Shown here in pieces: positions 6,740 through 47,296 of a DNA stretch of 47,754 bases. A program made the position numbers and the translations under genes. Numbering within the stretch: the stretch's first letter is position 1; each line of letters begins with the position of its first letter. The stretch is from a virus (Duplodnaviria > Heunggongvirae > Uroviricota > Caudoviricetes), in IMG/VR virus record IMGVR_UViG_2778261224_000004. One strand, 5' to 3'. Below the pieces are notes generated by a model. That model had not been told where the DNA came from. It did no database searches and saw only the letters and a program-made list of their open reading frames with translations.

Positions 6740-7741
6740 TTAATACCCATTAATTACTCTTCGGACATCAATCGAGGTGGTATAACCACTAGTCCCAATT
6801 GAATGCACAGCTTTCGATATAAGATATTTTCCAGAAAATGAACCGAATCCCTCCAGATTTATAGTTACACCAGCTACCAATCTGGTGTCTCCAACCAATA
6901 CTAAAGATCCGGTATTTTGATATCTATTTTTAAGCCGCAAAGCAGCCTTTGCCTTACGTTTTGCTTCATCTAAATTAGCTACCAGTTTTCTTATCTTAAG
7001 ATTCGACCCTTCTTCTACGGATGGATCTACCCAAGTATACGAAAGCGACTTTCTTTTTTTAGGTACGCGATATTTGCACGTGCAACTTTTATACAAATCT
7101 GTAGATTGTGTGCTAAAGCTATATCTGATTATCTCATCAATACCTAACGTAAGCGTAGCGATAGGATCTTTTTGCTCAAACATCTCTTGAGCAAATATTA
7201 TTAATTGGCTATCAGTGACCTTTAACGACAACCCTTCATCCTGGCAAAGTCGATGGAGAAATTTTAAATCGCTTTCCTCCATTTGATCTTCACGCGCATA
7301 ATATGGATTACTATCACCATCAATAAGAAACAACAGTTCAAGGTTAGCTAATTTAGCTATAGAAGTTGCTATATCTTTAAGAGTTGTTTTTTCCCATGCA
7401 TTACTTTTTAAATCACGTCTAATGCCTGATGAAACAGGAACAGAAACAGCAGTTACCTCAACCACAGAAGGTGGTCCAGAGCAAGTTATGCCATCTACCT
7501 GGAATTTCCCGCACTCAAGGACGATTTGATTTATAGGCTTAAAGCTCAAATCAATAAAATCACCCTTTTTAGGTGTCCAGTCTCCAGACCATTTCCCATC
7601 ATCATTTTTTAATATAATAGAAATATCATCGACCTGACCATCTTCATTATCTGTATAAGACATTGACAAAACATCAGGTGACATATGAGCGGTAATATTT
7701 ACATTCTGATATATAACATCAAAAAGCGTTTTACGTAACAC
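6740..7741 (-). CDS. Tail/baseplate hub protein, P2 gpD-like (late control D family)
   Basis: 333-aa ORF downstream of tape measure and LysM-like gene; size and synteny. Confidence 0.5.
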   Translation of the reverse strand: MLRKTLFDVIYQNVNITAHMSPDVLSMSYTDNEDGQVDDISIILKNDDGKWSGDWTPKKGDFIDLSFKPINQIVLECGKFQVDGITCSGPPSVVEVTAVSVPVSSGIRRDLKSNAWEKTTLKDIATSIAKLANLELLFLIDGDSNPYYAREDQMEESDLKFLHRLCQDEGLSLKVTDSQLIIFAQEMFEQKDPIATLTLGIDEIIRYSFSTQSTDLYKSCTCKYRVPKKRKSLSYTWVDPSVEEGSNLKIRKLVANLDEAKRKAKAALRLKNRYQNTGSLVLVGDTRLVAGVTINLEGFGSFSGKYLISKAVHSIGTSGYTTSIDVRRVINGY

Positions 7742-23323: not shown

Positions 23324-24703
23324 CTACTTAATCAACGGCCGGAAAGCCGCCAGCACATCATCAGATCGTCCGATTGTTGAACCACCAGGCAACGGCAACT
23401 CAAACTCAAAACGAACAGCTTTCTCCAGACTCGCCCAACTAAGGGAATCATCGTTAATAACGTGCAAATACCAGCTCTTACAGTTGAATATTGACCGCTT
23501 AATCCTGAAACCATGTACACGACACAACTGCTTCACTTCATCATCAGAGTGAAACTTCTGGTAAAACCAGTGCCCCTTCCGGTACAACGCGGTAAAACCG
23601 TTATGATCAATAAAATAAAGCCGGCTTTTGGAACTCGCAGCTTGTGTTTGCTTCAGGACTGTTTCCAGCTCTCCACGGCTACGGCCAGAAAAGAATATTG
23701 ACCCACCAGCTTTACACAAGCCTTTCAGAACCGTCAGAACGGACCATTCAGCCTCGACACTATCGACCGAGTTCAAAACGCTATCGCAAATCACGTAGTC
23801 GTAACGCCCTCGCGTTTTTAAGTCGTCCACCAGCGTATCAATCATCCGGTTTGTTGCGGTCCTATCCAGAGTGTTTCCAGCGCCCTTACGGCGGAAAAGC
23901 TCGAGATCATGCAGGTTATATCCCTTTGCCCTGAGCATTCGCGCGTAGTCTCCCTGCCCCGAACCAAAATCAATTCCTCTTGGCGTCTTGGCAACGATCG
24001 GGAGGATCAACGACTCATACAGATTTGATTTCAGGCTGCCACCATTACGCAACCGCATAAGCTGCGCATACGTCTGGATGTATGTTGTTTTCTCCAGATG
24101 AGAATACTCAAATACACCATAAGTTTTATTCAGATAACTTTGGTATTTTTCCTTCTCAACATCAGGGATCACAAACACCGTTAGCGGTGTGCGCGTCATT
24201 TTCGCTGCTAATGCATACTGAGCACAGTGAATAACCTCACCAGACTGAGTAGCAACACAACCACCCCACGGACCATACTTGATAACCAGTTCCGCTATGT
24301 TCTTTCGAACATATGCCATTTTCGCGCGCATATTGCCTGAGATCTGGCTTGCCGATACCTGAACAAAACCATGCTTATCTTCCAGACCGGACACCCTGCA
24401 ACGCTCATCTCCGCTATCAAAATCCGTTCCGTTATGCAGTTGGTTAAACCGTACTTCGTCGTATACCGTCGTTTCACAGGGCAACACATACACCGCAGCA
24501 CGCGTTATTCCCAACTTACGTAGCGCCTTCGTCCTTTGGTGTCCCGCCACCAGCAAATCGCCGCGCACTATCAATGGCTTCACAAGCCCCAGCTCCCTGA
24601 CGCTTTCCGCCAGCCTCGCAAGATCATCCTCACCGATAAAACGCGGGTTATATTCCGCGCCGCGTAGGTGCGTTATGTCGTAATTGAGGTGAAGCATCAG
24701 CAC
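23324..24703 (-). CDS. ParB-like N-terminal domain fused to a class I SAM-dependent methyltransferase domain
   Basis: 459-aa ORF; N-terminal ParB-like ..LVAGHQRTKAL..; C-terminal Rossmann methyltransferase motif I GIDFGSGQGDYA and motif II-like YDYVICDSVL; no DPPY/DPPW or PCQ motif seen. Confidence 0.65.
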   Translation of the reverse strand: MLMLHLNYDITHLRGAEYNPRFIGEDDLARLAESVRELGLVKPLIVRGDLLVAGHQRTKALRKLGITRAAVYVLPCETTVYDEVRFNQLHNGTDFDSGDERCRVSGLEDKHGFVQVSASQISGNMRAKMAYVRKNIAELVIKYGPWGGCVATQSGEVIHCAQYALAAKMTRTPLTVFVIPDVEKEKYQSYLNKTYGVFEYSHLEKTTYIQTYAQLMRLRNGGSLKSNLYESLILPIVAKTPRGIDFGSGQGDYARMLRAKGYNLHDLELFRRKGAGNTLDRTATNRMIDTLVDDLKTRGRYDYVICDSVLNSVDSVEAEWSVLTVLKGLCKAGGSIFFSGRSRGELETVLKQTQAASSKSRLYFIDHNGFTALYRKGHWFYQKFHSDDEVKQLCRVHGFRIKRSIFNCKSWYLHVINDDSLSWASLEKAVRFEFELPLPGGSTIGRSDDVLAAFRPLIK

Positions 24704-25320
24704 ACCTCCCCAGCCAGCAATGCGGATACAAATCCGATATAGCTGCCATTATCATCAACATAACGAGACACCGCGCAGTCAAAACGATCCGCTTCCTCAT
24801 CCGTTGCCGGGATTTTATGACCTCCAAATGACAGGTACTGAACTTTTACGCCTGATTTGGCCTCATCCTTCTCAAATGGGATATCCATACCCTCTGTGTC
24901 ATCGTAGACCGCCGCACTCAATAAGTTATCCAGTTCGCGCTGAGTAAAACCAATTGAGTCCAGAGAAAAATCATCGGCCGCAAGATCTGCAAGCTCCGCG
25001 CTTAACAACTCTTCATCCCAACCAGCATTCAGCGGAATACGGTTGTCGGCCAGACGATATGCCTTCTTCTGATTCTCCGTTAGCCCAGCCAGAACAATGC
25101 AGGGAACATCATCCATCCCCAACTGAGTGGCCGCAGCAATTCGACCATGACCAGCAATTACAACGTTGTTCTCGTCTATCAGGATCGGATTAGTCCATCC
25201 GTACTCCTGTATGCTGGCAACAATCTGATCTACCTGCTCCACGGAGTGTGTGCGAGCGTTCTTTTCATAACCAATCAACACAGAAAGTGGTAAAGAAACC
25301 ACATTAAGTTGTTTTGTCAT
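24697..25320 (-). CDS. ParB-like nuclease domain (ParB/Srx fold) protein
   Basis: 207-aa ORF; ..YEKNARTHSVEQVDQIVASIQEYGWTNPILIDE..VIAGHGRIAAA.. Confidence 0.7.
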   Translation of the reverse strand: MTKQLNVVSLPLSVLIGYEKNARTHSVEQVDQIVASIQEYGWTNPILIDENNVVIAGHGRIAAATQLGMDDVPCIVLAGLTENQKKAYRLADNRIPLNAGWDEELLSAELADLAADDFSLDSIGFTQRELDNLLSAAVYDDTEGMDIPFEKDEAKSGVKVQYLSFGGHKIPATDEEADRFDCAVSRYVDDNGSYIGFVSALLAGEVC

Positions 25321-28376: not shown

Positions 28377-28452
28377 TGGTGGCCCCTACCGGATTTGAAC
28401 CGATGACCGTGCGATTATGAGTCGCCTGCTCTAACCACTGAGCTAAGGGGCC
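28377..28452 (-). tRNA. tRNA with CAT anticodon (Met or lysidine-type Ile2), encoded CCA end
   Basis: Hand-folded cloverleaf GGCCCCTTAGCTCAGTGGTTAGAGCAGGCGACTCATAATCGCACGGTCATCGGTTCAAATCCGGTAGGGGCCACCA: 7-bp acceptor stem, D arm, anticodon loop CTCATAA, T loop TTCAAAT. Confidence 0.85.
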
Positions 28453-30241: not shown

Positions 30242-30272
30242 AAAAAAAAAGCCCCGCCGAAAAAGGCAGGGC
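30242..30272 (-). terminator. Rho-independent terminator (minus strand) just upstream of the lysis cassette
   Basis: Minus strand GCCCTGCC-TTTTTC-GGCGGGGC stem-loop (8 bp incl. one G-U) followed by nine T. Confidence 0.7.
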
Positions 30273-30418
30273 TTCATAAAGCAACAAATTACGCGGTAAT
30301 CGCTTAACGCAGTTTTACTACGTTAAATGAAACACTACACCCAGTTACCACCTAAAACAAGGTTTCCCCATAAAAAAACCTTCATATCGTGGTTAATCGA
30401 TCAATAAAAAAGCAATGT

Positions 30419-35764: not shown

Positions 35765-36276
35765 TGATGGCCCCCGTCATTTCTGGTGCTTTTCACCGTG
35801 CGGCTTCTTAAAAACCTGCCATCACGAACAACAGACACTTCTCGTTTACCCAACCTCATTTCACGGCGGTAACATTCAGAAAATGCCTCGTCCGGCATCA
35901 TATAAATGCGACGCTTCGCCTCCGTATCCAGAAGGGAACGGCTTGGGGTTACATATAAGAACGACTCATCAATAGGGACAAAACCACGAGCAAGAATTGC
36001 TGGCAGAATACCAGGAAGAACGCAGAAAACAGCTCCACGATGCAGCAACATCTGGTACTCCATGACCTCCGTAATCCCCGTAACGACTGTTACGGTGTCA
36101 CGTCTGTTACGGCTGGCAACCAGTCGCTGCACACCTCCAATTTTCTGCTCTACAGATAGACGTTTGCTATCGTTATCAATATGATCGATAACAAATCCTT
36201 TAATCGTTTGATCAAGGTAGTGCACCACCTGCGATTGAATCTGGTGATTATCACCAAAGAAGGCCAGAATCATCAT
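35761..36276 (-). CDS. Hypothetical protein
   Basis: 171-aa ORF in early operon. Confidence 0.4.
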   Translation of the reverse strand: MMILAFFGDNHQIQSQVVHYLDQTIKGFVIDHIDNDSKRLSVEQKIGGVQRLVASRNRRDTVTVVTGITEVMEYQMLLHRGAVFCVLPGILPAILARGFVPIDESFLYVTPSRSLLDTEAKRRIYMMPDEAFSECYRREMRLGKREVSVVRDGRFLRSRTVKSTRNDGGHQ

Positions 36277-36767
36277 TCCTCAAGCCTCCCAAGTGCTGAA
36301 CGCCGGGCGTTGCTAATCTCCTTATGAATCAGCTCGATATCGCTGGAATCTTTATTCTTAAGCTCCAGCACGGTAATCGCATCACGAACCTCTGAAACGG
36401 TTACGTGTGAGTGTTTCCAGCGAGCAATGAATCGCGGACCGCGTAGATTGCAACGCTCCGCAGGCATCCCCAGCTCAGAGAAAACCGCTTTCAGCCTTGA
36501 TAAGCAGTTAACAGGGAGATTCCCTTTGATCTTGTTCTGCCGAACCGATGTGCCATCGCTACGCTGGCGCTGACGTTCGGCAAAATCTGCCGCCCATTGC
36601 TGGACGTTAATCCGGCCTTCCGAATACGCCACCAGCAGCGTCAGGTTATCCGCACGAGGGAATCTCTCGAAGCGATACCAGGCACCAATCAGTGATGACG
36701 TAAAGCCAAACTTTCTGGCAACACCAATTTGGCCTCCATTTTCGTCAACCCACTCCTGAAAGGTCAT
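36273..36767 (-). CDS. Cro/CII-like early regulator (N-terminal HTH), divergent from repressor gene
   Basis: 164-aa ORF transcribed away from the CI-like gene; N-terminal ..GGQIGVARKFGFTSSLIGAWY.. HTH-like. Confidence 0.45.
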   Translation of the reverse strand: MTFQEWVDENGGQIGVARKFGFTSSLIGAWYRFERFPRADNLTLLVAYSEGRINVQQWAADFAERQRQRSDGTSVRQNKIKGNLPVNCLSRLKAVFSELGMPAERCNLRGPRFIARWKHSHVTVSEVRDAITVLELKNKDSSDIELIHKEISNARRSALGRLEE

Positions 36768-36786
36768 TTAACGAACTCCAGTTAAA

Positions 36787-36904
36787 ACCACGATACGTGG
36801 TATTAAAACCACATATCGTGAGTTTTTCAATGGGCGAAACAAAAAATAACCTTCTATTTGTGGTCCACCTCTCGTCTTACCATGTGAAAACCACTAAATG
36901 TGGT
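36787..36904. promoter_or_regulatory. Immunity-region operators: palindromes ACCAC-N5-GTGGT between divergent repressor and Cro-like genes
   Basis: Sites at 36787-36801 (ACCACGATACGTGGT), 36808-36822 (imperfect) and 36890-36904 (ACCACTAAATGTGGT). Confidence 0.6.
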
Positions 36905-36941
36905 AATGTATAAATAACCCACCATTCACGATTGATGAGAC

Positions 36942-37598
36942 ATGAAAAGCAACGACGAGAACATCAAGAAAGAAATAGGTCTGCGCATTCAGACTCTACG
37001 GAAACAATCCGGCATGACTGCCGGAGATCTCCAGCAAGTCACTGGAATAGGCTTAAGCACCTTGCAGAACTATGAGGCCGGATTAAGACAACCATCTATA
37101 CCTGCCATCAAGAAAATCGCGCACGCCCTGAAAGCATCAGCGCCTTATATCGCGTGCTTAACAGATAACCCGTTCCCACCCCAGAATACTAACGCTCCTG
37201 TTATTCCTGGGCTTGTAGCTATAAAAAATGACATAGCATCGCACGCCGGAGAAAAGCCAGTGCTGGCGATAGAACAGGAGATTCTACGAAGCAAGAACAT
37301 CAACCCATCGTCTCTGTCAGTTCTCCAGAGCAACGATGAGTTAATGTCACCAACAATATCCCCAGGCTCCCAAGTCCTGATTAATACAGACGATACAGAG
37401 ATTCATGAGGGGATCTATGCCCTTGAAGACAGAAATGGCCTGGTTGTTTTGAGGCACTGTAGAGTCATACCGGGTGACAATGCTGTTATGCTGTCAACCG
37501 AAAGGGATGCTGAAATGAACACTAAGCATCTGAATAACGAGGAATTTAAGCGTTATAAAGTTCTTGGCCGCGTAGTTAGTGTTGTCAACTGGTTATGA
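36942..37598 (+). CDS. CI-like repressor (HTH_XRE N-terminus, LexA/S24-like C-terminal domain)
   Basis: 218-aa ORF; ..QTLRKQSGMTAGDLQQVTGIGLSTLQNYEAG.. HTH and S24-like C-terminal domain. Confidence 0.8.
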   Translation: MKSNDENIKKEIGLRIQTLRKQSGMTAGDLQQVTGIGLSTLQNYEAGLRQPSIPAIKKIAHALKASAPYIACLTDNPFPPQNTNAPVIPGLVAIKNDIASHAGEKPVLAIEQEILRSKNINPSSLSVLQSNDELMSPTISPGSQVLINTDDTEIHEGIYALEDRNGLVVLRHCRVIPGDNAVMLSTERDAEMNTKHLNNEEFKRYKVLGRVVSVVNWL

Positions 37599-37640
37599 TA
37601 CACAGCACGGCGAAAGCCGTGCATTTCTACGCTCAAAAAA

Positions 37641-37655
37641 ACCACATTTTGTGGT
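37641..37655. promoter_or_regulatory. Operator-like palindrome ACCACATTTTGTGGT between repressor gene and downstream ORF
   Basis: Perfect outer half-sites; adjacent TTGACA at 37657-37662. Confidence 0.45.
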
Positions 37656-37690
37656 TTTGACAACATGTAAAAGTATAAAAGAGGCTACGC

Positions 37691-38065
37691 ATGGAATTAC
37701 ATACAGCCAATAAAAACGAAACTCTGATCACTGCTGGAATCGAAATCCAAGCGTTGAACATAGCGATTGAGTGTATGTTATGCCAAATCATTGATAATGA
37801 GAAAGATATCGACTGGATAGAATCTATCCTTCATCTGGCATCAGAACAAAAAGTCTGCCTCAAAACGGCCTTACAATACGATGTGCCAGCGGTATCGAAG
37901 CTGTGCCAGCCATTGATGGCATATAACAGGGCTATTATTTCTGTATGCCTCATGATTCTTGATGAAACCCCCCCTCTTAGCGACCGCTCAGAAGCTGCTC
38001 TAACCCTCTCACGTAAACAGCGACAGCTAGCAAATCAACTGATATCAACGATAGCTGACCTCTGA
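37691..38065 (+). CDS. Hypothetical protein encoded directly downstream of the repressor
   Basis: 124-aa ORF followed by a hairpin terminator. Confidence 0.45.
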   Translation: MELHTANKNETLITAGIEIQALNIAIECMLCQIIDNEKDIDWIESILHLASEQKVCLKTALQYDVPAVSKLCQPLMAYNRAIISVCLMILDETPPLSDRSEAALTLSRKQRQLANQLISTIADL

Positions 38066-38069
38066 CTGC

Positions 38070-38089
38070 AAGCGGGCTAACGCCCGCTT
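38070..38089 (+). terminator. Hairpin (candidate terminator) after the 124-aa ORF
   Basis: AAGCGGGC-TAAC-GCCCGCTT perfect 8-bp stem; downstream tract AT-rich rather than a clean T run. Confidence 0.45.
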
Positions 38090-38200
38090 ATATGATTATA
38101 GATTTATATAATTATATAAAACGCTTTTCATCAGCCAAAAAGTTGGTTATGCTTACCTCGTTCTATAAATATAGATTTATAGAATTATATAACCAAACAC
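38085..38200 (+). promoter_or_regulatory. Two copies of the AT-rich ATTATAGATTTATAtAA motif upstream of parA (promoter/centromere candidate)
   Basis: Motif at about 38090-38115 and 38165-38190; a third copy lies upstream of parG at 38861-38900. Confidence 0.45.
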
Positions 38201-45852: not shown

Positions 45853-46830
45853 TTAATGTTGGAGTGATTTCCAGGTCTTTCTTAACCTGTTATAACGCTG
45901 CTCAACGAGGGATCGTAAATATGCAAGGTCAGCTCCAGGATACATGCCATCAGCAAATTCCTGGCTAACCTCTCTAGTGATTTGATGACGAAGTTCGGCC
46001 TCTCCCTTTTCCCGAACAAGACGCGCAGCTCTCTCCGCTGCTTTCTGTTTTGCCTTTATCTCTCTGGCCGTCTTCCTCTGATGCCATACATTCTCCATCT
46101 GCTCCTGAATAACAATACGCTTATAATCAGCCTCCGTTATCGCTTTTTTAAGCCGTTCGCTATTCTTCGCATTGAAGTAATTAAGTTTCTGGCTAACCGC
46201 ACGTCTCCATGCTTGTTCAGTAATACCAACGGTTTCCAGCAGTTGATCACGAATCTCTATTTTCGCTGGCCAATACTGTTTATTCACCCGATCCCAGCGA
46301 CGTTCATAATCAATAAAACCTAACGCTTTCAGTTGCGACAATGCCCTTGTACAGCGCGTTATAGACTTGTTCCCAGCTTCGGATACGGTAGACAGGCCGC
46401 AAAAATCAGCCAACGCCTCAGCACTGGCCAGAACCCGCTTAGAAATGATGTTTACATGGTGCAAAATCGCAGCGATCACAGCATTAATCGCCCGACGACG
46501 ATGCTCGTTTATCCGGCGCTTCCGCTCTGACGGTTGATTAACGTAGAACGCAACCTCACACGTAAGATCACGCCCATTAATGCGCTGTAAAGCATCAGAT
46601 AACACCAGCGGCAGCTTGTGCGTATGGTGCTTTGGAGGCTGGAACTCCGGCGACAAATTACAAACGTAAGCTGAACGTAGAGACGGCATTGGTCTATCCA
46701 TATGTTCGCTCTTGCGTCCACGGAAAACCAACGTATAATGGGAGTTGTCGAGGCGCCCATGGTTAGTTGTTGGTTTTCCGTGGATGTCGCAAGAAGCCCG
46801 CAGATTTATCTGCGGGCTTTTTGTTTCCAT
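45853..46830 (-). CDS. repA: Plasmid replication initiator RepA, IncFII (RepFIIA)-like; true start probably internal (Met 46701 or 46692)
   Basis: 325-aa ORF; ..FCGLSTVSEAGNKSITRCTRALSQLKALGFIDYERRWD.. resembles the RepA1 core as recalled; the N-terminal 43 codons overlap the antisense-RNA/leader structures. Confidence 0.6.
   Translation of the reverse strand: METKSPQINLRASCDIHGKPTTNHGRLDNSHYTLVFRGRKSEHMDRPMPSLRSAYVCNLSPEFQPPKHHTHKLPLVLSDALQRINGRDLTCEVAFYVNQPSERKRRINEHRRRAINAVIAAILHHVNIISKRVLASAEALADFCGLSTVSEAGNKSITRCTRALSQLKALGFIDYERRWDRVNKQYWPAKIEIRDQLLETVGITEQAWRRAVSQKLNYFNAKNSERLKKAITEADYKRIVIQEQMENVWHQRKTAREIKAKQKAAERAARLVREKGEAELRHQITREVSQEFADGMYPGADLAYLRSLVEQRYNRLRKTWKSLQH
46746..46826 (+). 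ncRNA. Candidate CopA-like antisense RNA opposite the repA leader
   Basis: Plus-strand TTGCGT-N16-TATAAT (46712-46739) and, about 80 nt downstream, terminator GCCCGCAGA-TTTA-TCTGCGGGC plus TTTTGTTT (46796-46826); perfect 15-bp inverted repeat 46718-46732 / 46768-46782 in the leader. Confidence 0.5.
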
Positions 46831-46866: not shown

Positions 46867-46881
46867 ACCACGTTACGTGGT
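46867..46881. promoter_or_regulatory. Operator-like palindrome ACCACGTTACGTGGT in the repA promoter region
   Basis: Same ACCAC-N5-GTGGT architecture as the immunity-region operators. Confidence 0.45.
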
Positions 46882-47296
46882 TTTAAGAGAACTCTACCAC
46901 AACACTTTCGGTCATGCACGAAGTCTCTCACTGATCGAACGATAATCCACCAGTAAAAGGATCTAAATTGGATCTCGTTTTGCGAGCATCATACTACTGG
47001 CCTAACTCCAGTCAATGATTCCCAGCCAGAAACCTGCGGTAAACTCATCGTTCAGCAATATGCTGTCCGGCTTCAAAGATAAGGTGACATCATCCCTTAA
47101 CAGCGCGGCCAGTTCAGTTAAAGGGCTGTTCTGATTTAATGCTGGCCACTCATACCTGGTAATAAGTGGTCAGTCTTAACACTCACCATTTGATTGCACC
47201 CGTGTTGACGATTTGTTACTGGATATCAGACACGCTGGATAGCCAGTAGAAACATACCATTAAAATTATTACAATAATTGGTCACATGATTATCTT

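What the first reader, a model, noticed from the sequence alone, without database searches (positions are those of the whole stretch)
36787..37655. ACCAC-N5-GTGGT operator family in the immunity region
Three palindromic sites lie between the divergent CI-like and Cro-like genes (36787-36801, 36808-22, 36890-36904) and a fourth sits just downstream of the repressor gene (37641-37655). The spacing and symmetry fit dimeric HTH repressor operators at a divergent promoter pair, a lambdoid-style genetic switch.
Basis: partly seen in the sequence, partly recalled or inferred. Interest (0 to 1): 0.5.

Follow-up and report, generated by a model that had tools for sequence, protein, structure and literature searches.

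The report
Repressor operator set of a phage-plasmid

Summary
The window is a circular ~47.7-kb phage-plasmid (near-identical E. coli plasmids and Yersinia phage vB_YpM_41). Three of the four reported sites are exact ACCAC-N5-GTGGT. The fourth (36808-36822) has a degenerate right half (GTGAG). Five exact sites occur against 0.00 expected.

In seven relatives whose repressors are only 60-66% identical, sites lie at the same places. Half-site columns are 97% conserved, spacers 59%, other non-coding columns 75%. A matrix trained only on relatives ranks six window sites on top:
- O1 and O2 bracket the -10 of the leftward early promoter.
- O3 fills the spacer of the repressor gene's promoter.
- O4 follows the repressor gene's terminator.
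- O5 lies at +4..+18 of the promoter of an IncFII-type repA.
- O6 lies upstream of a C4-RNA/antirepressor operon.

The seventh exact-core match (7461) is chance.

The best reading is an operator regulon of the 218-aa HTH repressor. It links immunity, plasmid replication and antirepressor control, as N15's CB and P1's C1 do.

Binding is inferred, not shown. The role of O4 and a conserved hybrid motif (CCTTC-N5-GTGGT) upstream of the early and late promoters remain unexplained. Verdict: a new member of a known kind, of moderate interest.

The parts
36787..36801 (.). O1, exact operator ACCACGATACGTGGT. It covers about -6..+9 of the leftward early promoter.
   Evidence: Matrix score 31.6 bits against a null maximum of 18.7. 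Present at the same aligned place in 7 genomes with a variable spacer.
36808..36822 (.). O2, imperfect operator ACCACATATCGTGAG, 21 bp from O1. It lies in the spacer between the -35 and -10 of the early promoter.
   Evidence: 2 mismatches. 23.6 bits. Relatives carry ACCAC-N5-GTGGG at the same column with 21-bp spacing.
36802..36830 (-). Predicted leftward early (lytic) promoter: -35 TTGAAA (36830-36825), 17 nt, -10 TTTAAT (36807-36802). It drives the 164-aa gene and the long leftward operon.
   Evidence: Top-scoring candidate at the same aligned position in all 7 genomes in a heuristic hexamer scan. Coordinates. No transcript data.
36850..36864 (.). H1, hybrid site CCTTCTATTTGTGGT. It is 42 bp from O2 and centred about -62 of the early promoter.
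   Evidence: CCTTC-N5-GTGGT occurs exactly twice per genome in 7 genomes. In Serratia the equivalent position holds the perfect palindrome ACTAC-ATTTT-GTAGT.
36890..36904 (.). O3, exact operator ACCACTAAATGTGGT. It fills the spacer of the repressor gene's promoter and overlaps its extended -10.
   Evidence: 21.0 bits. Conserved in 7 genomes, here with a conserved T/A-rich spacer.
36901..36909 (+). Predicted extended -10 (TGgTAATGT) of the repressor gene promoter.
   Evidence: TAA[TAG]GT preceded by TGn is conserved at the same column in all 7 genomes. Inferred only.
36942..37598 (+). 218-aa repressor gene: an HTH_3 N-terminal domain plus a diverged, possibly S24-like, C-terminal domain.
   Evidence: Pfam HTH_3 4.5e-11; Peptidase_S24 18.4 bits, below the 23.3 cut-off. 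phrog_4 1e-26 and phrog_6201 3e-9. Residues 12-49 are almost entirely invariant in the family. The AF2 N-terminal domain has pLDDT about 90; the C-terminal domain is poorly modelled.
36273..36767 (-). 164-aa first gene of the leftward operon. It has a Cro/YdaS-like N-terminal ~70 aa plus an extra C-terminal domain.
   Evidence: No Pfam hit even at E<=10. A profile search finds 70-82-aa stand-alone relatives. One of them hits YdaS_toxin at 29.2 bits against a cut-off of 30, and P22_Cro weakly.
37605..37622 (+). Hairpin terminator after the repressor gene.
   Evidence: GCACGGC-loop-GCCGTGC plus a T-run. The stem is invariant in 8 genomes.
37641..37655 (.). O4, exact operator ACCACATTTTGTGGT with A/T-tract flanks. 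It lies between the terminator and the 124-aa gene (37691-38065).
   Evidence: 30.4 bits. Conserved in 7 genomes with a variable spacer. No conserved sigma-70 promoter on either strand.
40153..40167 (.). O6, candidate imperfect operator CCCACGCTATGTGGT. It lies 24 bp upstream of the -35 of the isrK/C4/antirepressor operon promoter.
   Evidence: 17.4 bits, near the null maximum. One-mismatch sites lie at the same aligned position in 5 genomes.
40192..41835 (+). Antirepressor module: promoter TTGACA-17-GACACT (40192-40220), isrK-like RNA (40227-40299), C4 antisense RNA (40324-40412), 63-aa ORF (40466-40657) and the ORF6N+Rha antirepressor gene (40654-41835).
   Evidence: Rfam C4 77.8 bits and isrK 65.8 bits. 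Pfam ORF6N 5.6e-22 and Phage_pRha 4.4e-12. PHROG anti-repressor families. Coordinates.
46867..46881 (.). O5, exact operator ACCACGTTACGTGGT at about +4..+18 of the predicted repA promoter.
   Evidence: 30.6 bits. Conserved with a variable spacer in 5 genomes that reach repA. It begins 9 nt downstream of an invariant TGnTAGAGT.
46884..47015 (-). repA control region: upstream promoter TTGACT-16-TATGAT (47015-46988), a GATC-rich stretch, and a second promoter with extended -10 TGGTAGAGT (46899-46891).
   Evidence: Alignment A5, conserved as far as Serratia. Coordinates. No ORF (no copB) lies between the two promoters.
45853..46701 (-). IncFII-type repA. The conserved start is at 46701; the open frame extends to 46830 in this window only.
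   Evidence: Pfam IncFII_repA 1.2e-43, matching from residue 52 of the long ORF. The short start is conserved in relatives.
46712..46825 (+). Predicted CopA-like antisense RNA unit in the repA leader: TTGCGT-16-TATAAT, then terminator 46796-46817 plus a T-run.
   Evidence: Invariant block in A5. Coordinates. The Rfam CopA model gave no hit at gathering threshold.
30379..30393 (.). H2, hybrid site CCTTCATATCGTGGT. It is centred about -62 of a conserved late-promoter-like element (TTGTTT-17-TAGTGT), which is followed by a terminator before the holin gene.
   Evidence: 13.3 bits. Serratia relatives have AACCACAAAA next to the -35 in front of their holin genes.
7461..7475 (.). Not part of the system: an exact core match inside a tail gene.
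   Evidence: 0.8 bits with the extended matrix. No A/T flanks. Mutated in the ATCC 25922 plasmid.

Best explanation
The sites are operators of the element's own 218-aa repressor, which has an XRE-type HTH N-terminal domain and an oligomerising C-terminal domain. Each is a 15-bp core, ACCAC-N5-GTGGT, within about 21-23 bp of A-tract/T-tract flanks. A dimer would read the two ACCAC half-sites one helical turn apart.

In the plasmid-prophage state the repressor would act as follows.
- It occupies O1 and O2, 21 bp apart on the same face of the helix. These bracket the -10 and fill the spacer of the leftward early promoter, shutting off the Cro-like gene and the whole lytic operon.
- It occupies O3 in the spacer and extended -10 of its own promoter, giving negative autoregulation.
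- It occupies O5 just downstream of the start of the second repA promoter. This is the job CopB does in IncFII plasmids such as R1. repA is then left on the upstream constitutive promoter under antisense-RNA control, so copy number stays low.
- It probably contacts O4, O6 and the hybrid sites H1 and H2 as auxiliary or lower-affinity sites, acting through looping, roadblock, or damping of the antirepressor and late promoters.

Inactivation of the repressor, most likely by the C4-RNA-controlled Ant/Rha antirepressor rather than by self-cleavage, would derepress the lytic operon and repA together.

Shown: the sites, their statistics, their positional conservation and the identities of the neighbouring genes. 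Inferred: the promoters, who binds, and every regulatory consequence.
For: - Enrichment: 5 exact sites against 0.00 expected.
- A matrix trained only on relatives puts O1, O5, O4, O2 and O3 at 21-32 bits, against a null maximum of 18.7 and a null mean maximum of 7.8. Eight sites reach 12 bits or more, against 0.14 expected.
- Sites sit at the same places in Salmonella, Citrobacter, K. aerogenes, Yokenella and E. coli relatives. Half-site columns have 0.97 mean pairwise identity, spacers 0.59 and other non-coding columns 0.75.
- The repressor's DNA-binding domain is almost invariant across these relatives while the rest diverges to 60-66% identity. This explains the shared half-site.
- Serratia relatives (33-36% identity, same recognition helix STLQNYE[AS]G) keep AACCAC half-sites in the switch region, after the repressor gene, at the repA promoter and at the late promoter.
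- The sites overlap the only promoter candidates conserved in all genomes.
- Precedents: N15 CB binds three operators between cB and cro plus two at the repA promoter and sets copy number (PMC4488713). R1 repA has a constitutive upstream promoter and a repressor-controlled downstream one (PMC5717011).
Against: - There is no binding, transcript-start or expression data of any kind.
- The Cro-like protein or another factor could be the binder.
- The early promoter's -10 (TTTAAT) lacks the usual A at -11.
- O4 has no recognisable promoter.
- O6 lies upstream of its promoter, not on it, and scores within the null range.
- The left half (CCTTC) of the hybrid sites is itself conserved, which a merely weak operator does not explain.
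- The 'non-cleavable' inference rests on a by-eye alignment. Profile comparisons to LexA and to solved structures found nothing either way.
Confidence: 0.75

Rival explanations
1. The sites are bound mainly or only by the 164-aa Cro-like protein, or are shared between it and the repressor as in lambda. The pattern would then reflect the lytic regulator's regulon.
For: The gene lies next to O1/O2. Its N-terminal ~70 aa link to stand-alone Cro/YdaS-like HTH proteins. In lambda and N15, Cro uses repressor operators. The hybrid sites H1 and H2 could be its preferred targets.
Against: A lytic regulator has no obvious reason to sit on the repA promoter start and after the repressor gene. PY54 Cro binds only one site and not the repA sites. 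The near-invariant HTH of the 218-aa protein matches the invariance of the half-sites, whereas the 164-aa protein's N-terminus varies more.
Confidence: 0.15
2. O1 and O2 are not two protein sites but the arms of a 14-bp hairpin on the minus strand, followed by TTTT: an RNA terminator or attenuator ahead of the lytic operon.
For: The terminator scan flags 36821-36788 (-) with 14 pairs, loop 6 and tail TTTTAAC.
Against: Arm complementarity is automatic for two adjacent palindromes. The test is the spacers, and they pair 4 of 5 only in the two E. coli sequences, against 2, 2, 3, 1 and 0 of 5 in the other five relatives, where chance gives 1.25 (read). The best conserved promoter starts transcription inside O1, so O2 would not be transcribed. 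The same motif recurs singly at O3, O4 and O5.
Confidence: 0.03
3. The sites belong to a plasmid-maintenance or host protein (ParA/ParG-type partition protein, RepA, DnaA or another host factor) rather than to the immunity repressor.
For: O4 precedes the partition region and O5 precedes repA. The element is a plasmid.
Against: The partition operon has its own, different repeats at 38088-38200. Three to four sites lie in the repressor/cro intergenic region on the promoters. The motif does not match the DnaA box or other E. coli factor sites I can recall (from memory, not tested).
Confidence: 0.05
4. The motif is a chance or compositional feature.
For: One exact core match (7461) does look like chance.
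Against: 0.00 expected against 5 observed. Positions are conserved with drifting spacers across genera.
Confidence: 0.01

Closest known systems
Phage-plasmid N15 (also phiKO2): CB repressor with three OR operators between cB and cro and two OL operators on the repA promoter, plus a separate antirepressor locus controlled by a small RNA
   Same: The logic is the same. [quoted passage not shown] A separate antirepressor module under small-RNA control is also present here.
   Different: No sequence relationship was seen: N15 is absent from the tblastn hits of the repressor in the phage collection. This element is circular with an IncFII-type RepA and antisense-RNA control, whereas N15 is linear with an unrelated primase-type RepA (the latter from my own knowledge). 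There is one site at repA instead of two, and a myovirus-type virion module instead of a siphovirus one.
Lambda immunity region (CI, Cro, OR1-3, OL1-3)
   Same: Divergent repressor and cro-type genes. 15-17-bp two-fold symmetric operators with 5-bp half-sites one turn apart. From memory, lambda's consensus ATCAC-N5-GTGAT differs from ACCAC-N5-GTGGT by one base per half-site. A pair of adjacent sites lies on the lytic promoter, one site on the repressor promoter, and a further site beyond the 3' end of the repressor gene, where lambda has OL.
   Different: There are not three evenly spaced operators shared by overlapping back-to-back promoters (spacings here are 21 and 82 bp). No site is placed to activate the repressor promoter. 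O4 has no detectable promoter. The S24 match is sub-threshold and the catalytic residues are not identifiable.
IncFII (R1/R100) replication control: PcopB and PrepA promoters, CopB repressor, CopA antisense RNA
   Same: RepA of Pfam family PF02387. Two conserved tandem promoters lie upstream of a long leader that carries an antisense promoter and terminator. The downstream promoter carries a repressor site, as PrepA does for CopB (PMC5717011).
   Different: There is no copB gene between the promoters. The site on the downstream promoter belongs to the phage operator family instead. The Rfam CopA model does not reach threshold.
Phage-plasmid P1: C1 repressor with many dispersed operators, including Op51 at the immI (c4-icd-ant) operon
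   Same: Operators of the primary repressor are dispersed around a plasmid-prophage genome. A C4 antisense RNA precedes a small ORF and an antirepressor gene (Rfam RF01695, 77.8 bits), with a candidate operator upstream (O6).
   Different: P1 C1 operators are asymmetric 17-mers and C1 is not an XRE/CI-type protein (from my own knowledge). O6 is imperfect and lies upstream of the promoter rather than on it.

Membership tests
Lambda-type CI/Cro switch | Divergent repressor and cro-type genes flanking an operator-bearing intergenic region | tested here: met
   ORFs 36942-37598 (+) and 36273-36767 (-) flank a 174-bp region with O1, O2, H1 and O3.
Lambda-type CI/Cro switch | Three tandem operators, about 23-24 bp apart, overlapping both back-to-back promoters, with the middle one positioned to activate the repressor promoter | tested here: not met
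   Centre-to-centre spacings are 21 bp (O1-O2) and 82 bp (O2-O3). The predicted transcription starts are about 120 bp apart. A distal promoter that would place O2 at -44 is not conserved in three relatives.
Lambda-type CI/Cro switch | Repressor with an S24 self-cleaving C-terminal domain (Ala-Gly site, catalytic Ser and Lys) | tested here: inconclusive
   Peptidase_S24 scores 18.4 bits, below the 23.3 cut-off. hhalign against LexA and a profile search of PDB find nothing. The AF2 C-terminal domain has low confidence. By eye, Leu replaces both Ser and Lys.
Lambda-type CI/Cro switch | Repressor, and Cro, bind the operators | not testable with these tools
   Needs EMSA, footprinting or ChIP.
N15-type phage-plasmid repressor regulon | [quoted passage not shown] | tested here: met
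   O5 at 46867-46881 begins 9 nt after the invariant TGnTAGAGT upstream of repA. It is conserved in 5 genomes.
N15-type phage-plasmid repressor regulon | Homology to N15 proteins or replicon (CB, primase-type RepA, protelomerase, linear genome) | tested here: not met
   The 77-bp terminal overlap indicates a circle. RepA is IncFII-type. There are no N15-group hits for the repressor in the phage collection.
IncFII (R1-type) replicon | RepA of the IncFII_repA family | tested here: met
   PF02387, 1.2e-43.
IncFII (R1-type) replicon | Antisense RNA (CopA) against the repA leader | tested here: inconclusive
   A conserved antisense promoter TTGCGT-16-TATAAT and a terminator lie in the leader. There is no Rfam CopA hit at gathering threshold.
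IncFII (R1-type) replicon | copB repressor gene between the upstream promoter and PrepA | tested here: not met
   Only about 100 nt with no credible ORF lie between the two promoters.
P1 immI-type antirepressor module | C4 antisense RNA followed by a small ORF and an antirepressor gene | tested here: met
   Rfam RF01695 at 77.8 bits (gathering 45) at 40324-40412. 63-aa ORF, then the ORF6N/Rha protein.
P1 immI-type antirepressor module | Operator of the primary repressor on the module's promoter | tested here: inconclusive
   O6 has one mismatch and scores 17.4 bits. It ends 24 bp upstream of the -35. Its position is conserved, but it does not overlap the core promoter.

The most novel reading that the evidence does not exclude
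In this phage-plasmid lineage the prophage repressor has replaced CopB as the transcriptional governor of an otherwise classical IncFII replicon. Loss of immunity would then directly derepress the strong repA promoter and convert copy-controlled plasmid replication into lytic over-replication. In addition, a conserved asymmetric site (ACCAC-N5-GAAGG, centred about -62 of both the early and the late promoter) would mark a second regulator, or a heterotypic binding mode of the repressor, that wires early and late lytic transcription together.
Probability: 0.35. Interest if true: 0.55.

Novelty: new member of a known kind. Interest (0 to 1): 0.4.

Why it matters
This roughly 47-49-kb phage-plasmid is common. 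At least 58 sequenced Escherichia plasmids carry it, including one in the reference strain ATCC 25922, and it has been isolated as infectious Yersinia phages. Its genes in this region are almost all annotated 'hypothetical'.

A defined operator motif and a six-to-eight-site regulon map give several things:
- a concrete, testable model of how the element keeps lysogeny, sets its copy number and switches to lytic growth;
- a second, independent example, on an unrelated replicon, of the N15 principle that a prophage repressor governs the plasmid replication gene;
- a simple sequence signature for predicting immunity groups among related plasmids.

It does not overturn any current view.

Tried and rejected
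- A scan of genome contigs with the repressor alignment found no relatives. Relatives came instead from the plasmid collection and from protein look-ups.
A profile of the C-terminal domain against PDB found nothing.
- The AF2 models of the 164-aa protein (pLDDT 56) and of the repressor's C-terminal domain were too poor for fold searches, so none were run.
- Pfam gave nothing for the 164-aa, 171-aa and 124-aa proteins even at E<=10.
- A LexA-box search (CTGT-N8-ACAG) found one match, inside a structural gene, at chance frequency. There is no SOS box near the antirepressor.
- I considered a lambda-like distal repressor promoter (TTTTCA-17-TAACCT), which would put O2 at -44 as an activating site and H1 as an OR3-like site. 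I rejected it because its -10 is not conserved in the Citrobacter, Klebsiella and Yokenella relatives, although CCTTC is.
- I considered GAAGG in the hybrid sites as a ribosome-binding site. I rejected it because no conserved ORF follows.
- I considered the O1/O2 hairpin as a terminator and rejected it on spacer non-complementarity.
- Literature searches found no description of this element family or of its operators. pSLy3 and vB_YpM_HQ103 turned out to be unrelated elements.
Full report
**What the window is.** The first and last 77 bases are identical, so the window is a circle of about 47,677 bp. The region 36200-38100 is 100% identical to E. coli plasmid pEC488-4 and 99.2-99.5% identical to three Yersinia phages (vB_YpM_39, 41 and 44). 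Fifty-eight non-mobilisable plasmids of 46-52 kb, mostly Escherichia, carry it, including a plasmid of E. coli ATCC 25922. Nearly all genes from 36767 down to about 150 lie on the minus strand, running from early genes through lysis and head to contractile-tail genes. To the right of the switch, on the plus strand, lie the repressor gene, a 124-aa gene, a ParA-type partition operon, an antirepressor module and toxin-antitoxin genes; an IncFII-type repA follows on the minus strand. It is therefore a phage-plasmid.

**Check of the observation.** Sites 36787-36801, 36890-36904 and 37641-37655 are exact ACCAC-N5-GTGGT. Site 36808-36822 is ACCACATATCGTGAG, with two mismatches in its right half. The whole window holds five exact matches against 0.00 in 100 dinucleotide-preserving shuffles. 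The real sites share A-rich left and T-rich right flanks, giving AAAACCAC-N5-GTGGTTTT. The match at 7461 does not have these flanks.

**Relatives and phylogenetic footprint.** tblastn and protein searches found syntenic phage-plasmids whose repressors are 60-66% identical: two from Salmonella, one each from Citrobacter amalonaticus, Klebsiella aerogenes and Yokenella. Two Serratia elements are 33-36% identical.
- In every non-Serratia relative, ACCAC-N5-GTGGT sites (exact or with one mismatch) occupy the same places. There are two sites 21 bp apart next to the cro-like gene, one about 82 bp further on next to the repressor start, one just after the repressor gene's terminator, and one upstream of repA where the contig reaches it.
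- In alignments of these three non-coding regions, the 50 half-site columns have a mean pairwise identity of 0.97 and 48 of them are invariant. The 25 spacer columns have 0.59 and the other 612 columns 0.75. Half-site against other columns gives p=4e-8, and half-site against spacer gives p=6e-12. Conserved half-sites with freely drifting spacers are what a protein-binding site predicts.
- A 23-bp matrix trained only on the relatives' sites, then run over the window, gives the following scores.

| Site | Bits |
|---|---|
| O1 (36787) | 31.6 |
| O5 (46867) | 30.6 |
| O4 (37641) | 30.4 |
| O2 (36808) | 23.6 |
| O3 (36890) | 21.0 |
| O6 (40153) | 17.4 |
| 25298 | 17.3 |
| 30379 | 13.3 |
| 7461 | 0.8 |

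- Against first-order Markov nulls the mean maximum is 7.8 and the largest is 18.7.
- The 7461 match is also mutated in the ATCC 25922 plasmid. I take it as chance.

**Who binds.**
- The 218-aa protein has an HTH_3 domain (residues 16-69, E=4.5e-11) and hits the PHROG 'transcriptional repressor' and 'CI-like repressor' families over its full length.
- Across the family, nearly every residue from 12 to 49, including the helix-turn-helix TGIGLSTLQNYEAGLR, is invariant, while the linker and C-terminal domain diverge. This fits the invariant half-site.
- The Serratia proteins keep the recognition helix (STLQNYE[AS]G) but differ just before it (Leu38 to Arg). Their elements keep AACCAC half-sites, often without a good second half. 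These lie in the switch region (four, spaced 21/41/21 bp), after the repressor gene (two), at the repA promoter and next to the -35 in front of the holin gene.
- This is positional conservation across deep divergence, and even across different virion modules: pJSRIV006_2 has lambda-like siphovirus tail genes.
- Binding itself is inferred.
- The C-terminal domain matches Peptidase_S24 only below threshold (18.4 against 23.3 bits). Profile comparisons to LexA and to solved structures found nothing, and the AF2 model of that domain is unreliable.
- By eye, the segment DELM[SA]PTI aligns with the GDSMxPT motif with Leu in place of the catalytic Ser, and VLRH aligns with VKRL with Leu in place of Lys. 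Self-cleavage therefore seems unlikely, but this remains a by-eye inference.

**The 'Cro-like' gene.** The 164-aa protein has no Pfam hit even at E<=10 and no PDB relative. A profile search of 1.8 billion representatives found full-length relatives and, matching only residues 1-70, many stand-alone proteins of 70-82 aa. One of these reaches YdaS_toxin (a Cro-type HTH family) at 29.2 bits against a cut-off of 30, and others hit P22_Cro weakly. So the N-terminal third is plausibly Cro-type, and the rest is an added domain that also exists alone (P0045). The AF2 model was too poor to use.

**Anatomy of the switch.**
- On the minus strand, the only promoter candidate conserved in all seven genomes is TTGAAA (36830-36825), 17 nt, TTTAAT (36807-36802).
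- The -10 lies exactly between O1 and O2. O2 fills the spacer and O1 covers about -6 to +9. This is classical occlusion.
- On the plus strand, the conserved candidate is an extended -10, TGgTAATGT (36901-36909). Its TG is part of O3's right half-site, so O3 fills that promoter's spacer, which implies negative autoregulation.
- These promoters are predictions from a heuristic hexamer score whose frequencies I recalled from memory. No transcript data exist.

**O4.** It lies 18 bp after the terminator hairpin (37605-37622) and 35 bp before the start of the 124-aa gene. Its position is conserved in all relatives. No promoter candidate on either strand is conserved there. Its topology matches lambda's OL, lying beyond the 3' end of the repressor gene in front of a gene that reads away from it. 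Whether it is an operator of an unrecognised promoter, a roadblock to read-through, or a looping partner 751-854 bp from O1-O3 cannot be decided here.

**O5 and the replicon.**
- The 325-aa ORF 45853-46830 is an IncFII RepA (PF02387, 1.2e-43), matching from residue 52. The start conserved in relatives is at 46701.
- Upstream, and conserved as far as Serratia, the layout is as follows. First comes a promoter TTGACT-16-TATGAT (47015-46988). About 100 nt rich in GATC follow. Next is a second promoter with an invariant extended -10, TGnTAGAGT (46899-46891). O5 begins 9 nt after its hexamer, at about +4 to +18. Last is a leader holding an antisense promoter (TTGCGT-16-TATAAT, 46712-46739, plus strand) and a terminator (46796-46817), the layout of a CopA-type antisense RNA.
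- Rfam's CopA model did not reach threshold.
- This mirrors R1. There, repA is transcribed from a constitutive upstream promoter and from a stronger downstream promoter that CopB keeps about 90% repressed (PMC5717011).
- Here there is no copB ORF, and the site on the downstream promoter belongs to the phage operator family.
- The closest precedent is N15, whose CB repressor binds three operators between cB and cro and two on the repA promoter, thereby controlling copy number (PMC4488713).

**O6 and the antirepressor module.** Rfam finds an isrK-like RNA (40227-40299) and a C4 antisense RNA (40324-40412; 77.8 bits against a gathering score of 45). These are followed by a 63-aa ORF and a 393-aa ORF6N+Rha protein that hits many PHROG anti-repressor families. 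A good promoter, TTGACA-17-GACACT (40192-40220), would start transcription at the first base of the isrK match. O6 (CCCACGCTATGTGGT) ends 24 bp upstream of the -35. Relatives have one-mismatch sites (ACCACAATGYGTGAT) at the same aligned place. This resembles P1's immI module with its C1 operator, but O6 is weak and off the core promoter, so I rate it a candidate only.

**Hybrid sites.**
- CCTTC-N5-GTGGT occurs exactly twice in each of seven genomes, with variable N5. One copy lies in the switch region (window 36850-36864). The other lies about 150 bp upstream of the holin gene (30379-30393).
- Read on the lytic strand, both are ACCAC-N5-GAAGG, then a T-rich 18-19 nt, then a -35. For H1 the -35 is TTGAAA. 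For H2 it is TTGTTT-17-TAGTGT, a block invariant in all genomes and followed by a terminator before the holin, which suggests antitermination-type late control.
- H1 lies 42 and 63 bp from O2 and O1, in helical phase with both. In Serratia the H1-equivalent is a perfect palindrome.
- The ACCAC half ties these sites to the operator family. The conserved CCTTC half is unexplained.

**Rivals.**
- The terminator scan flags O1+O2 as a 14-bp hairpin. Spacer complementarity is 4 of 5 only in the two E. coli sequences, and 2, 2, 3, 1 and 0 of 5 in the other relatives, so the hairpin is a by-product of two adjacent palindromes.
- A partition or replication protein is unlikely as the binder, because the par operon has its own repeats and most sites lie on switch promoters.
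- The Cro-like protein may share some sites, as in lambda, but is an unlikely sole binder.

**Verdict.** The interpretation as repressor operators is well supported by comparison but unproven biochemically. The system is best described as the operator regulon of an uncharacterised phage-plasmid lineage. It works like N15's CB regulon and, in part, like P1's C1 regulon, on an IncFII-type replicon. I found no published description of it in the searchable library. It is a new member of a known kind and of moderate interest.

Noticed in passing
window 39559-39855 (-): Full-length match to the ryfA RNA family (Rfam RF00126, 142 bits against a gathering score of 80). It lies in the variable non-coding stretch between the partition genes and the antirepressor module.
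   Followed up: no
window 40227-40412 (+): An isrK-like RNA and a C4 antisense RNA lie in tandem ahead of a 63-aa ORF and the antirepressor gene, a P1 immI-like module. No LexA box lies nearby.
   Followed up: partly
window 28377-28452 (-): A tRNA-Met (CAT) gene lies among the lytic-strand genes.
   Followed up: no
window 30251-30362 (-): An invariant promoter-like block (TTGTTT-17-TAGTGT) is followed about 60 nt later by a strong terminator just before the holin gene. This is the layout of an antitermination-controlled late operon. The antiterminator is not identified.
   Followed up: partly
window 25277-25312: Two one-mismatch operator-like sites lie 21 bp apart, the same spacing as O1-O2, within the first 45 nt of a ParB-like nuclease gene (24697..25320, minus strand). 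One scores 17.3 bits. Conservation could be due to the coding sequence.
   Followed up: partly
window 38088-38200: Four overlapping copies of a ~32-nt A/T-rich repeat and several inverted repeats lie between the 124-aa gene's terminator and parA. They are probably the partition site and operator of the ParA/82-aa protein system.
   Followed up: no
window 46950-46985 (-): A conserved pair or cluster of GATC sites (GATCCAATTTAGATCC) lies between the two repA promoters. It is present in all relatives including Serratia, and may be Dam/SeqA-sensitive.
   Followed up: no
window 47016-47140, compared with L005 12333-12887: The recombinase (invertase/resolvase-type) gene that lies just upstream of repA in the ATCC 25922, Salmonella and Citrobacter plasmids is missing here. 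Only its 3' end seems to remain.
   Followed up: no
L010 (Serratia sp. pJSRIV006_2), whole record: It has the same repressor/cro/Ref/par/repA backbone as the window but lambda-like siphovirus tail genes instead of contractile-tail genes. The regulatory-plasmid module is therefore mosaic with respect to virion type.
   Followed up: no
window 45853-46830 (-): In E. coli members the repA frame is open for 43 extra codons upstream, through the antisense-RNA target, and is annotated that way in RefSeq (326 aa). Relatives lack this extension, so the short start at 46701 is more likely.
   Followed up: partly
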